Below are positions 945-64,000 of a DNA stretch of 64,000 nucleotides, in pieces; position 1 is the stretch's first letter, and each line of letters begins with the position of its first letter. Origin of the DNA: Stegostoma tigrinum (Eukaryota); NCBI RefSeq assembly GCF_030684315.1, contig NC_081391.1, positions 13,059,342 to 13,123,341 on the forward strand, written 5' to 3'. Below the pieces are notes generated by a model, which had not been told where the DNA came from, made no database searches, and saw nothing but the letters and a program-made list of their open reading frames with translations. The position numbers and the translations under genes are program-made.

Positions 945-1658
945 AAGCCTGAGAGGGATGAGTGGGGTAACAGTCTGCAGGCAATGCAGGTTGCCCTGGA
1001 TGTGGAGAAGAATGTGAACCAGAGTTTGCTGGATCTACACCAACTCGCCACAGCCCAGACTGACCCTCATGCAAGCTTCACCTCTTCATTCTCATCACTG
1101 CCATGCCTCCTCAACTTCATTGGTTGGTCTTTGTGGAGTGGAAATTCGCAGACGTAACTTTGTCCAGATGCTACATTGTACCTTTGTCATCATAATTATG
1201 ATGACAATGTTCAACTGCTCAACACCGAACTGAAATAGGAATTTGGATTACAGTCCAGTGGGAATGCTGATGTGATTTTTGGCTGCTGAATTGGGGATTG
1301 TTGCACTATACAATACAACTTGGAGCTCTTTAAGAAGGTGAGATGGAGCAGCTGAAATGTCCTCACTGGCACAAATTCTCCACCTGTTAGCTAGATTTTC
1401 AGGGATGTCTAGAACTAGCTATGGCTCAGTCTTTTTCAGGAGGAATTGTGAAGTTGTCTTGGATAGTATAAATGTACCAAGTGTCATATTCCTCTGTTGC
1501 AGCTGTGTGACTTCCTGGAGACTCACTATTTGGATGAGGAGGTGGAGATCATCAAGCAACTCGGGGACTACATCACCAACCTGAAGCGCCTGGGAGCCCC
1601 TGAGAATGGGATGGGAGAGTACCTGTTTGACAGGCTCTCCCTGGAGGACAGCAGTTAG
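945..1658 (+). CDS. Ferritin subunit, copy A (partial: exons 3-4 only; 5' part lies outside the window)
   Basis: Exon 3 945-1070 ([42 protein letters not shown]) and exon 4 1503-1658 ([51 protein letters not shown]). AG acceptors; intron 3 donor is GC (GCAAGC at 1071); AATAAA at 1786-1791. Confidence 0.9.
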
Positions 1659-3389
1659 TGTGGCCTGGAGTACTGTCTGCTTGTTCTGAATGCATTCCCC
1701 ACTTCACCCTGGGCAACCCGTCTCATTCCAGGGAGAAGGGGCTTGTAGCAAAGAATGTAATGGCTGTACCAGCTGAATGCAAATGAATAAAATCATGTAT
1801 TGATCTTGCTTATTGTCCATCATTCAGAGCACTGGATATTTTGGGAGATATCTTATTGAGCTTGAAGGCAGTTCTCTTTCTGTAATTTGGCTGACCCAAT
1901 TACTAATTGGACATGAAAACAACCTTTCAATGGATGTATTTACTAACTCTCGATCATTGCACAGTAACTAGATGGACTTCCTTTTTCTCATGACACAGGA
2001 GACTCAAGACTTTCCCCTCTGAGTAGGATGAGGTTGGTGTTTCCCCAATTGTGGGGTGGAAAATCTTCCAGAGGTCAATTAGTACACTTCTGGATACTCT
2101 AGGTTCAATTGTCGATCAGAACTTGTCTTCCTTTTTGAGACAGGATGTTCCCGTACCTTCTCGAAGGGATAAACCAGACGCCCATTCCATAGGATGTGGG
2201 ATATCTACGTTCAATGCCAGGTTTCCCTTCCTACAGCCTCCCCTCAGTCACCACGAGCAATGAGATTTGTCACTCGGACGATAATCTAATGGGAAGACAA
2301 GTCTGTGATTTGGAGGCTGGATCAGTTGACAAAATGCTGGCGGGAGTAGATATATCAAGTTCTGCTCTAAATCCAGTTGCAGGAACCAGCTAAGTTAGGA
2401 AAGACACAGGCTTGACTCATCTGGTGTAACCTCCCCAGTGAGGCCCTACCATGACCAGTATTTTCTATTCTCAGCATTGTTGTTTTTGGTCTCCTGTGGA
2501 TGTAGCCTAGGGATCTTGGAGCCGGTTATGGATCAAAGCAGGACCAGCACTGGAGGCCTGTGACCTTCTGTTTCTCCCCATCTCTTGTTCCAGCCAACTG
2601 CAGTTGCACCCCCTACCCGGTTAAATCCCTCTTGACATTTCTGAGGGAGGGTGGCTGGACTCACTGTGGGTTGGCTTTTTCATTCCACCATCTGAGTAAC
2701 ATAGACCGCTCCATCTTTGCTCAAGAAGGAGTCAGTTCACACTGGGGCTGAGCTTTTCCCAAGAGCAATCCAAAATTGTCTTTACTGTGGCATCCTCCCC
2801 TTCTTCCTCCTCCTTTCTCCACCACACCCCCCCTTCTCTCCCAGCATTCACTCCAACAAGCTGCCCAGCCCAGATCTGGGAAAATTCAGCCCAACCGTTC
2901 ACAGAAGCCACTTACCAAGAGGTCAGCTGGAATTCCCCTGATCTGTATGGGATTACAATGTCTGCTCTCGATGCTAACAACAGGAAGTTGTAGTTTTTGC
3001 TGCAGAATCCCTCAATGTGGGCAGATGTCATTCAGCTAATTAAATTTGTAATGACCTACTGAGCAACCTCCTGCTCAGGGACACCCTATTCCCTTAATCC
3101 CACATTTCCCATGGCTAATCTAACAAATCCGAATGCCCCTTGTCACTGTCAGCAATTATCTTTGACAATCGACCTAATCTGCAGCCCATTGGACGAGGGG
3201 AAGCAGTCGGAGCAGATGGTGGAAATCCATGCAGACACAGGGAGAATGTGCAAACTCCACTCATGTTGCCAAAGGCTCGAATTGAACCAGAGTCCCTGTG
3301 GCTGTGACGTATCAGTGTTAACCACTGAGCCCCCATCACGTCCAAAAGTACCAAACAAAAGGGGGAGGCAGTTGCACAGTCATCAAGTC

Positions 3390-3674
3390 GTACATCATGG
3401 AAATAGACTCTTCTGCCCACACAGTCCTTACAGACCAGGTTTCCAAAACTCTGTAGTGCCATTTGGCCCATCTTCCTCTTAGCCATTCCTTCCCACATAA
3501 GTGTCCAAATGTCTTATCAAAGTGGTAATTATACGCACCTCTCCCGCTTCTTCTGGCAGCTCGTTCCATACACACACACACCACCCTCTGTGTGAAAACA
3601 TGGTCCCTCCCGTCCCTTTTAAATTTTTGCCCCTCTCCCCTCAAACCGATGCCCTCCAGTTTTGGACCCCCCTA
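3390..3674 (-). mobile_element. Ancestral CR1 3'-end remnant abutting the conserved element (paralogues ~11390-11680, 19550-19873, 28715-29018, 37490-37733, 47930-48234, 57380-57663)
   Basis: Minus-strand translations such as FTQRVV and KTRGY.F..RG.RFK...FTHSVVRVWNEL are CR1 ORF2 C-terminal motifs. Confidence 0.7.
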
Positions 3675-61900: not shown

Positions 61901-63599
61901 TAGCAGACACTCCCCATCTACTATCAAGACTCCACACTAATCAAATGCCATCACATAAACATCTCAACTGACTTCACTCTGGGGATTGGAGTGAGAAATC
62001 TAATCTCTCCTTTTAATGGATTTTTCAGCCTTTGGGCAACATCCTGGTGACCCTTCCAGTGCCATTGTGTCTCTGGTCACCACACTGTATTCCACCTTTG
62101 CATGGCCAATGCTGCAAAGCTTGTGACAAGACTGGAGTCCCTGTCCTGCGCCCCAAGAAATGGGGACGGGCATTGTGGAAGCCATCTTCCCCATCCTGTC
62201 TACACTTATGGATCCTTGAAATATCTCTAGTCTTGTTCTCTTGGTTCCTTTATTGTCAACATATTGCTGTCCCTTCAATGAATTAAATAGTAGTGATGCT
62301 TTTGATCATTCAGGTCAGTCCGAGATGAAGCCATAAGCACAAGTGGGACTTCAACCTGGGCCTATGCTCCAAACCTAGGGACAGTACCACTGCATAACGA
62401 GCCCTGGGATTAAGTTGTGAATATCCTCCTTGGGATGCCATCAGATGGGCACTGACAATTCTGTGCAAACATAACTCTTATCCCCACGATGACCTGGTTG
62501 TGAATTGACTCTCCTTTCGGAAGAAGCAAATAGGGCTAGGTGAAAGCAATTGTTACATAACTGATCTGTTCTTCCATCGGGCTTCAGGGATGGCGGTGGT
62601 TAGCACAACTGCATCAGTGCTTGGGGCACAAGCTTAATTCGGGAGTTGACATGTTCACCACATCTCCACATAGGCTTCCTCCCACAGTCCAAAGATGTGC
62701 AGGGTAGGATAGGCCATGAAAAATGCAGGATTACATGGCTGGGGCTAGGACCAGGTTGGATGCTCTTCAGATGGTCATGAGTGGGCAGAATGGCCTGATG
62801 CATGCTGCAGGGATTTTGTTTCTGAGGCTTACCTGTCCTTCTTTCCATCCTCAGAAGCCAGAGAGGGATGAGTGGGGTAACAGTCTGCAGGCGCTGCAGG
62901 TTGCCCTGGATCTGGAGAAGAATGTGAACCAGAGTTTGCTGGATCTACACCAACTCTCCACAGCCCAGACTGACCCTCATGTAAGCTTCATCTCCTCCTC
63001 ATTCTCATCACTGCGAGACCCTCAGGGCAACACTTCATTGGTTGGTCTGTGTGGATTGGAAATTCACAGGTGTGCACTGATCACTTTGGGTCCATGCTGC
63101 TGAGCAGTTGTTACATGGTGATCAGTAATGAAGTGAAATGGGAATTTGGAAGGCAATCCATTGGGAGTGATGAAGTGATATTGGCCATTGAATTCCCATT
63201 CTCACTTGGGAGCATTACAGTGGAATGATCATTGTCCATCACCATCCAACTCAGCTCCACTTCACAAACAGCAAGATGGAGCAGCTGAAATCCTATTGTC
63301 CTCACTGGCACAGATTTTCCAGGTGTTAGCTAAATTTTCAGGGCTGTCTGGAACTAGTATGGTTAAGCATGTTTTTCAGTGGGAATTCTGAAATTGTCTT
63401 GGATAGTGTTAATGCACCCAGTTGTCATATTCCTCTGTTGCAGCTGTGTGACTTCCTGGAGACTCACTATTTGGATGAGGAGGTGGAGATCATCAAGCAA
63501 CTCGGGGGCTACATCACCAACCTGAAGCGCCTGGGAGCCCCTGAGAATGGGATGGGAGAGTACCTGTTTGACAGGCTCTCCCTGGAGGACAGCAGTTAG
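58938..63599 (+). CDS. Ferritin subunit, copy H, 176 aa, 4 exons
   Basis: Exons 58938-59039, 61214-61360, 62855-62980, 63444-63599; near-identical to copy B including introns; AATAAA at 63729-63734. Confidence 0.94.
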
Positions 63600-64000
63600 T
63601 GTGGCCTGGAGTACTGTCTGCTTGGTCTGAATGCATTCCCCACTTCACCCTGGACAATCTGTCTCCTTCCAAGGAGAAGGGAATTTTGTAGCAAAGAATG
63701 TAATGGCTGTACCAGCTAAATGGAAATGAATAAAATGATGTATTGATCTTGCTTATTGTCCATCATTCAGAGCTCTGAATACTTTGGGTGATAGCTCTTG
63801 CTTGAAGCCAGTTCTCTTCTGTAATTTGATTGGTCCAATTTCTAATTGGACTGGGCAACCCTTCACGGAATCGCTCACTATCCCCACATTAGAATGTAAC
63901 TAGATGGAGTGTTTTTTTTGGTTATTCCTGTGGAAATTGAAGGTGCTTCTCCTCCAAATAGGATAAGGTTGGGATTTGTCAATTGTGGCATTGGCTTTCT

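What the first reader, a model, noticed from the sequence alone, without database searches (positions are those of the whole stretch)
945..63734. Tandem array of at least 8 intron-containing ferritin genes filling the window
Seen: eight head-to-tail 4-exon ferritin genes, six with intact frames and conserved promoters and polyA signals; duplicated sequence runs to the right edge and gene A is cut at the left edge. Known: mammalian ferritin expansions are mostly processed pseudogenes or intronless Fthl17 retrogenes, although smaller tandem clusters exist in some fishes. Inference: a dosage-amplified, specialised ferritin family in a cartilaginous fish, for example for bulk iron loading of oocyte/yolk or liver, or a non-iron structural role. 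I cannot tell from the sequence whether it has been described.
Basis: partly seen in the sequence, partly recalled or inferred. Interest (0 to 1): 0.8.

Follow-up and report, generated by a model that had tools for sequence, protein, structure and literature searches.

The report
Shark ferritin array, catalytically disabled subfamily
These eight side-by-side iron-storage (ferritin) genes are a slice of a giant shark gene cluster that is already known, but every copy here has lost a key iron-oxidising residue, much like the mammalian light chain, and shows no iron-sensing switch, which suggests sharks have their own helper subunit, probably for stocking eggs with iron.

Summary
Observation confirmed: eight head-to-tail four-exon ferritin genes, six with intact 176-aa frames, one frameshifted, one cut by the left edge. 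Named hits place the window in the zebra shark (Stegostoma tigrinum). The array itself is not new: Sahm et al. 2024 (preprint) and Yang et al. 2026 (PNAS) describe shark ferritin mega-clusters, and Sahm reports ovary-specific expression in Greenland shark. Not found in the texts I could see: all seven copies with exon 2 carry Lys at the bridging ferroxidase ligand (E62K) and all eight carry Q141E, both mammalian L-chain states. They belong to a strongly supported shark clade reaching back to the Galeomorphii-Squalomorphii split, separate from an equally expanded intact-centre clade on the same contig. The 5' UTRs show no iron-responsive element. Exons are homogenised (fourfold sites 92% identical, introns 67-73%) under purifying selection (dN/dS 0.32). 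Best reading: an L-like, iron-unregulated, dosage-amplified partner subunit that co-assembles with active subunits, probably in ovary. Loss of activity, co-assembly and tissue are inferred, not shown. Independent origin from mammalian L is favoured by the trees but a shared origin is not rejected (AU p 0.31-0.35).

The parts
945..1658 (+). Ferritin gene A, exons 3 (945-1070) and 4 (1503-1658); exons 1-2 lie left of the window; GC-AG intron 3; polyA signal 1786
4664..9722 (+). Gene B with promoter (DR1 motif 4664) and polyA signal: exons 4946-5047, 7222-7368, 8846-8971, 9432-9587; intact
12649..18263 (+). Gene C: exons 12924-13025, 15861-16007, 17387-17512, 17975-18130; intact frame, variant TATA
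22292..26848 (+). Gene D: exons 22565-22666, 24427-24573, 25970-26095, 26560-26715; intact
31066..36055 (+). Gene E: exons 31350-31451, 34645-34789, 35190-35315, 35767-35922; frameshifted in exon 2, degenerate TATA; probable pseudogene
38805..44215 (+). Gene F: exons 39079-39180, 41813-41959, 43335-43460, 43927-44082; intact
50856..55782 (+). Gene G: exons 51147-51248, 54377-54523, 54940-55065, 55496-55651; intact; mosaic, E-like from promoter to exon 3 and A-like from exon 3 on
58656..63734 (+). Gene H: exons 58938-59039, 61214-61360, 62855-62980, 63444-63599; intact; exons 1-3 are found letter for letter in S. tigrinum LOC132206467 (P0005)
54879..64000 (+). Two-gene segmental duplicate of 876-9986 (96.3% overall, 94-99% per 500 nt)
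20721..21962 (+). Non-LTR retrotransposon fragment (RVT_1, E 6.5e-29), CR1/L2-like by my recall; related fragments at 13525-14185 (+), 29653-30841 (-), 39703-40334 (+), 48869-50051 (-). Passenger, not part of the ferritin genes
44993..47359 (-). 788-aa stop-to-stop frame with weak RVT_1 match (E 3e-4) and a GIY-YIG-like motif near its end; Penelope-like by my recall; decayed relatives in intron 1 of E and G. Passenger

Best explanation
The window is part of the known shark ferritin mega-cluster and holds only members of a distinct 'K62' subfamily. Shown: Lys replaces the Glu62 that bridges the two irons of the ferroxidase centre, Glu replaces Gln141, the three-fold iron-entry channel residues and Glu61/Glu64 are kept, the frames are under purifying selection, and no IRE is detectable. 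Inferred: the subunit folds and assembles normally but oxidises little or no iron; it co-assembles with ferroxidase-active subunits from the neighbouring intact-centre subfamily into 24-mer heteropolymers and plays the role of the mammalian L chain (shell stability, mineral nucleation, long-term storage). With no IRE, output is set by copy number and promoter rather than cell iron, which fits bulk maternal stockpiling in the ovary/oocyte. The array grows and is maintained by unequal crossing-over and gene conversion centred on the exons.
For: K62 in 7 of 7 copies with exon 2, E141 in 8 of 8; the frog M chain has E/Q there, solved L chains have K/E; ligand list and loss of activity in E62K+H65G from a review passage (PMC6929972). 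K62 clade support 100/99 in 41 rows with the two trait columns removed and 100/100 in 31 rows under a mixture model; it includes Heptranchias (Squalomorphii) and galeomorph sharks. An intact-centre clade is expanded on the same 26.87-Mb contig (P0034, 69 member sequences). Pooled dN/dS 0.32 over 15 pairs. No IRE: Rfam 0 hits at gathering score, none among 8 weak hits to E 10 or in B's 5' region; no CAG(A/T)G in 130 nt before any of 7 ATGs. Ovary-specific expression of the Greenland shark cluster (Sahm et al.). Fourfold sites 747 of 810 identical (92%) between intron types vs intron interiors 67-73% (shuffled baseline 61-62%); G is an E/A mosaic.
Against: No activity, expression or assembly data for these copies. 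His65 and Glu27 are retained, unlike mammalian L (Y27, G65), and the cited knockout is the double mutant. Only 2 of 3 L-chain nucleation residues named in PMC13411386 (E60, E61, E64) are present; position 60 is Gln. The ovary result is from another shark, and I could not check that its cluster contains K62 copies. Yang et al. report some cluster copies transcribed in fin and blood. No canonical CPE in the 3' UTRs. The conserved DR1 motif is a type usually tied to liver/gut factors such as HNF4 (recalled). No K62-type row was seen for Pristiophorus, Heterodontus, Scyliorhinus, rays or chimaera among listed hits, so it may be dispensable. The IRE search had no positive control and the transcription start is inferred from the TATA position.
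Confidence: 0.55

Rival explanations
1. K62 subunits form largely iron-poor homopolymer shells used as a bulk protein of the oocyte or another tissue (amino-acid store, structural or sequestering role), a gene-sharing case rather than an L-chain analogue.
For: Extreme dosage, loss of the key ligand, no IRE; incomplete L nucleation site; ferritin is reported in amphibian and snail eggs and schistosome yolk platelets (PMC1488847 passage).
Against: Iron-entry channel residues H118, C130, D131, E134 are kept in 8 of 8 copies and E61/E64 in 7 of 7; an active partner family is expanded alongside.
Confidence: 0.15
2. Same L-like biochemistry but expressed mainly in liver, gut or yolk sac through the DR1 element, serving somatic iron or oxidative-stress handling (the ferroptosis/PUFA idea of Yang et al.).
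For: DR1 motif in 7 of 7 promoters, perfect in 5; some copies expressed in fin and blood in Greenland shark; tandem fthl27 in hadal snailfish is expressed in most tissues and lowers ROS (PMC10746142 passages).
Against: Ovary-specific expression of the largest Greenland shark cluster; a ferroxidase-poor subunit alone is a weak antioxidant (inference).
Confidence: 0.15
3. The K62 clade is the true orthologue of mammalian FTL in its inactive state, i.e. the ferroxidase-less L chain predates the shark/bony-vertebrate split.
For: AU tests do not reject a K62+marsupial-L clade (p 0.307; p 0.345); L shares 7 rare states with K62 sharks against 6 with sauropsid M chains.
Against: Both careful trees nest marsupial L inside intact-centre tetrapod M chains (100/97, 99/97); 3 of the 7 shared states (incl. 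E141) occur only in the carpet-shark rows, so they arose within the clade; a K62 also appears in an unrelated Heptranchias row (P0031), so the change recurs. Only marsupial L chains were sampled.
Confidence: 0.1
4. A mostly neutral birth-and-death expansion, or assembly over-expansion, with no special function.
For: One of 7 complete genes is frameshifted; B and H are 98-99% identical in places; many database models are partial or fused.
Against: Every copy has private substitutions and insertions; the closest block pair differs by about 4%; dN/dS 0.32; the clade and expansion recur in independent assemblies of several orders.
Confidence: 0.05

Closest known systems
Shark ferritin mega-cluster ('FTL/FTH1' copies of Sahm et al. 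2024, bioRxiv 10.1101/2024.09.09.611499; 'FTH1b' clusters of Yang et al. 2026, PMC13214024)
   Same: Tandem, intron-containing, dozens to hundreds of copies, shared across sharks; S. tigrinum was in Yang's species set.
   Different: Neither text I saw mentions ferroxidase residues, an IRE or two subfamilies ('ferroxidase' 0 hits). Yang infers functional similarity of FTH1a and FTH1b from the shared fold; the K62 state argues against that for this subfamily.
Amphibian/fish ferritin M (middle) subunit, e.g. bullfrog M, PDB 1MFR
   Same: Best solved-structure matches, 176 aa, gap-free alignment, about 69% identity.
   Different: M has an intact ferroxidase centre (E62, Q141, D144 in human H numbering); the window copies have K62, E141, I144.
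Mammalian ferritin light chain (FTL)
   Same: K62 with E107 kept (salt-bridge pair, residue identity recalled), E141, several other shared rare states.
   Different: Retains E27 and H65; about 60% identity to marsupial L; no IRE detected (mammalian FTL has one, recalled); multi-copy tandem array; trees place L elsewhere.
Teleost fthl27 tandem array (hadal snailfish, 14 copies, PMC10746142)
   Same: Tandem dosage amplification of a ferritin gene in a fish.
   Different: Much smaller, broadly expressed and shown to lower ROS; its active-site state was not checked here.

Membership tests
Eukaryotic 24-mer ferritin | Ferritin domain PF00210, about 175 aa, four-exon vertebrate gene | tested here: met
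   Pfam E 6.7e-36 for the 95-98% identical P0012 and 1.5e-8 for window exon 2; four exons
Eukaryotic 24-mer ferritin | Three-fold channel residues H118, C130, D131, E134 | tested here: met
   8 of 8 copies
Eukaryotic 24-mer ferritin | Assembles into a 24-mer and stores iron | not testable with these tools
   needs protein work
H/M-type (ferroxidase-active) ferritin | Complete centre E27, Y34, E62, H65, E107, Q141 | tested here: not met
   E62K in 7 of 7, Q141E in 8 of 8; E27, H65, E107 kept; Y34 kept in 6 of 7 (Cys in pseudogene E)
H/M-type ferritin | Groups with vertebrate H chains | tested here: not met
   K62 clade lies outside the H clade, which holds the teleost fth1b row; its place among M-type lineages is unresolved
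Mammalian L chain (FTL) | K62 and E141 | tested here: met
Mammalian L chain (FTL) | Y27 and G65 | tested here: not met
   E27 and H65 in 7 of 7
Mammalian L chain (FTL) | Nucleation glutamates E60, E61, E64 | tested here: not met
   E61 and E64 present, position 60 is Gln in 7 of 7
Mammalian L chain (FTL) | One clade with mammalian L | tested here: inconclusive
   ML trees separate them; AU p 0.307 and 0.345
Mammalian L chain (FTL) | No ferroxidase activity; co-assembly with H | not testable with these tools
   needs assay
IRE-regulated vertebrate ferritin mRNA | 5' UTR iron-responsive element | tested here: not met
   no positive control, transcription start inferred from TATA
Shark ferritin mega-cluster (Sahm 2024; Yang 2026) | Tandem intron-containing copies in a shark, many on one chromosome | tested here: met
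   8 in 64 kb; 14 K62-type and 4 intact-type Stegostoma clusters share a 26,869,179-nt longest contig
Shark ferritin mega-cluster (Sahm 2024; Yang 2026) | Syntenic with the Greenland/white shark cluster; ovary expression | not testable with these tools
   window holds no flanking genes; no RNA data

The most novel reading that the evidence does not exclude
Sharks evolved a ferroxidase-dead, IRE-free ferritin subunit more than once refined (K62 in the shark ancestor, E141/I144 added in carpet sharks) and amplified it to roughly half of a cluster of over a hundred genes, where it builds K62-dominated, iron-poor cages that act as a bulk maternal protein of the oocyte rather than as a conventional iron store.
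Probability: 0.15. Interest if true: 0.8.

Novelty: new variant of a known kind. Interest (0 to 1): 0.47.

Why it matters
The published shark ferritin expansions are counted as one pool of 'FTH1b' or 'FTL/FTH1' copies and linked to ferroptosis and longevity. If a large share of copies cannot oxidise iron and escape iron regulation, copy counts do not measure antioxidant capacity, and the cluster is better read as a two-subunit, probably reproductive, system. It would also be a test case for whether the H/L division of labour evolves repeatedly. The array as such is known and would not surprise a shark genomicist.

Tried and rejected
Rfam at gathering score and to E 10 found no IRE or other credible RNA; ARAGORN found 0 tRNA genes. 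Four 5' UTRs were folded: three no better than shuffles, G's z -2.06 from a U-run hairpin that is not IRE-like. A GGAGG-CAGAGT-CCTCC hairpin in exon 2 resembles an IRE loop but lacks the C bulge, lies in coding sequence and is not in the minimum-energy fold: rejected. mRNA-templated conversion was considered and is disfavoured: identity decays over 30-90 nt into introns and the 5' UTR is not homogenised. Haplotig duplication is disfavoured by about 4% divergence of the closest block pair. Cluster membership lists could not be obtained, so member counts (81 sequences in 14 K62-type Stegostoma-named clusters, 74 in 4 intact-type ones, my sums) are not gene counts: they may include isoforms, other assemblies and other species. 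The first tree (80 rows) finished only as a quick tree; careful trees used 41 and 31 of those rows; partial, fused and unnamed hits were left out of all trees. Structure and complex prediction were not run: with a gap-free 69% match to a solved ferritin they would pass by likeness. Searches gave no paper on a shark ferroxidase-deficient or IRE-less ferritin.
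Full report
Observation. Eight ferritin genes lie head to tail on the + strand at 7.9-11.6 kb spacing. Six of the seven complete genes encode 176-aa proteins (95-98% nucleotide, 91-95.5% amino-acid identity over 15 pairs). Gene E is frameshifted in exon 2. Gene A shows only exons 3-4, and its upstream sequence matches the long intron 2 of other copies, so it is cut by the window edge. All eight have a polyA signal at the same distance. 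The rest of the window is intron, spacer and retrotransposon fragments.

Source. The best hits are S. tigrinum proteins named 'ferritin middle/heavy subunit-like', whose longest contig is 26,869,179 nt. One named model, LOC132206467, contains exons 1-3 of gene H letter for letter, including H-specific substitutions, so the window is very likely zebra shark. Clusters at 90% identity are large in many sharks: 45 and 69 member sequences for two Stegostoma representatives, 76 and 127 in Chiloscyllium, 180 in Heptranchias, 138 in Pristiophorus. These are not gene counts.

What is already known. Sahm et al. (bioRxiv 10.1101/2024.09.09.611499; I read the outline, passages, the Discussion and part 1 of 2 of Methods; supplements not visible) report 155 FTL- and 179 FTH1-labelled copies in Greenland shark, syntenic clusters in white shark, and ovary-specific expression. 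Yang et al. (PMC13214024; passages and term searches of five supplements; figures not visible, so their zebra shark count is unseen) report 59 'FTH1b' copies in two tandem clusters and that sharks generally have more copies; S. tigrinum was in their set. The array is therefore known. A 14-copy fthl27 array is known in hadal snailfish (PMC10746142, passages).

What the copies are. Mapped to human H numbering through frog M and checked against pig and horse H chains, 7 of 7 copies with exon 2 have Lys at 62 and 8 of 8 have Glu at 141 and Ile at 144, while E27, E61, H65, E107 and the three-fold channel residues are kept. A review passage names E27, E62, H65 and E62, E107, Y34, Q141 as the two iron sites and says E62K+H65G abolishes activity (PMC6929972); E62 is the only residue in both lists. 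Solved L chains show K62 and E141. In trees of named proteins the window copies fall in a 'K62' clade with Chiloscyllium, Hemiscyllium, Mustelus, Cetorhinus, Carcharodon and Heptranchias (SH-aLRT 99 in 80 rows; 100/99 in 41 rows with columns 62 and 141 dropped; 100/100 in 31 rows). Heptranchias is a squalomorph and Stegostoma a galeomorph, so K62 dates to the shark ancestor; E141/I144 appear only in the carpet-shark rows. A separate expanded clade with an intact centre (97/92) includes P0034 from the same zebra shark contig. No K62-type row was seen for rays, chimaera, Pristiophorus, Heterodontus or Scyliorhinus, but only the best 120 of 2613 and of 1558 hits were listed. One Heptranchias row in the intact clade also has K62, so the change can recur.

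Relation to mammalian L. Both careful trees place marsupial L within intact-centre tetrapod M chains (100/97 and 99/97), which makes the shark state convergent. Against this, AU tests do not reject a joint clade (p 0.307, 0.345), and L shares 7 rare states with K62 sharks against 6 with sauropsid M. Only marsupial L chains were sampled. The teleost fth1b row groups with H chains, not with the shark cluster, so the label FTH1b looks loose.

Regulation. A block from about -300 to -100 is conserved (median 86%) between poorly conserved flanks (5' UTR 50%, upstream 51%). It holds a DR1 repeat (AGGTCA-A-AGGTCA, 7 of 7, 5 perfect), an inverted CCAAT box and E-boxes in 7 of 7, and a TATA at -93 to -110; the factor assignments are recalled and the copies are not independent. 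The implied 5' UTR is about 70 nt, about 30% GC, with no IRE loop in 7 of 7 and no Rfam IRE hit. There was no positive control and the start site is inferred. No canonical CPE was found in the 3' UTRs.

Evolution of the array. Pooled dN/dS is 0.32 (dN 0.028, dS 0.089). Introns sort the copies into types (B/H, C/F, E/G, D). Between types, fourfold-degenerate sites are 92% identical (747 of 810) while intron interiors are 67-73% identical against a shuffled baseline of 61-62%, and identity decays over 30-90 nt either side of each exon. Five residues are fixed between seven Stegostoma sequences and two hemiscylliid representatives. D and G share a two-base change that G's closest paralogue A lacks, and G switches from E-like to A-like at exon 3. 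This fits gene conversion and unequal crossing-over at exon islands; strong synonymous constraint is the alternative, and 14 of 16 informative coding sites still keep sister pairs together, so conversion is not recent or complete.

Mechanism. Shown: L-like active-site substitutions, purifying selection, no detectable IRE, an active-type family expanded alongside. Inferred: K62 subunits are ferroxidase-poor, co-assemble with active subunits and give stable, high-capacity cages made in bulk regardless of iron level, most likely in ovary for provisioning large yolky eggs (0.55). Only two of three L nucleation glutamates named in PMC13411386 (passages) are present, which leaves room for an iron-poor bulk-protein role (0.15). 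Somatic expression (0.15), ancient FTL orthology (0.1) and neutral or artefactual expansion (0.05) are the other rivals.

Novelty. The array is known; the K62, IRE-less subfamily was not found in ten library searches (listings and abstract starts only, except papers named above, plus passages of PMC11719527, PMC1488847 and PMC13701976) or in the two shark genome texts ('ferroxidase' 0 hits). Subscription journals, figures and the preprint's supplements were not visible and could hold it. Verdict: new variant of a known kind, interest 0.47.

Noticed in passing
window 44993-47359 (-): A 788-aa stop-free frame with reverse transcriptase and a GIY-YIG-like end, Penelope-like by recall, probably a young insertion between F and G; decayed relatives sit in intron 1 of E (33053-34090) and G (52765-53918), and a piece at 18695-18976.
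   Followed up: partly
P0002-P0005 (S. tigrinum models): Several database models are fusions of exons 1-2-3 of one copy to exons 2-3-4 of the next; P0005 skips H's exon 4 although it is intact in the window. Probably annotation artefacts from near-identical copies, or read-through splicing. P0005 also suggests that the gene after H is C-like, extending the A-B-C / G-H-next repeat.
   Followed up: partly
window 1071-1072: Gene A intron 3 has a GC donor where its near-twin G has GT.
   Followed up: no
window 7338-7354 and equivalents in C, G, H: An IRE-like hairpin loop inside exon 2 coding sequence, without the C bulge; gene E's deletion falls in this loop. Judged coincidental.
   Followed up: partly
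P0079, P0080, P0020, P0118, P0123, P0163, P0169: His65 to Arg recurs in both K62-clade and intact-clade elasmobranch ferritins, hinting at repeated loss of the ferroxidase centre.
   Followed up: no
P0110: A vertebrate-type ferritin (72% identical to the shark query) is labelled Aeromonas veronii; probably contamination of that record.
   Followed up: no
window 28384-28466: Perfect 40-nt tandem duplication (2.1 copies) in the D-E spacer.
   Followed up: no
genes C, D, F, H coding changes: Private changes at otherwise conserved residues (C Q70P, D A63V, F R76G and H125Q, H Y37D and D147G; own numbering) may mark copies starting to decay.
   Followed up: no
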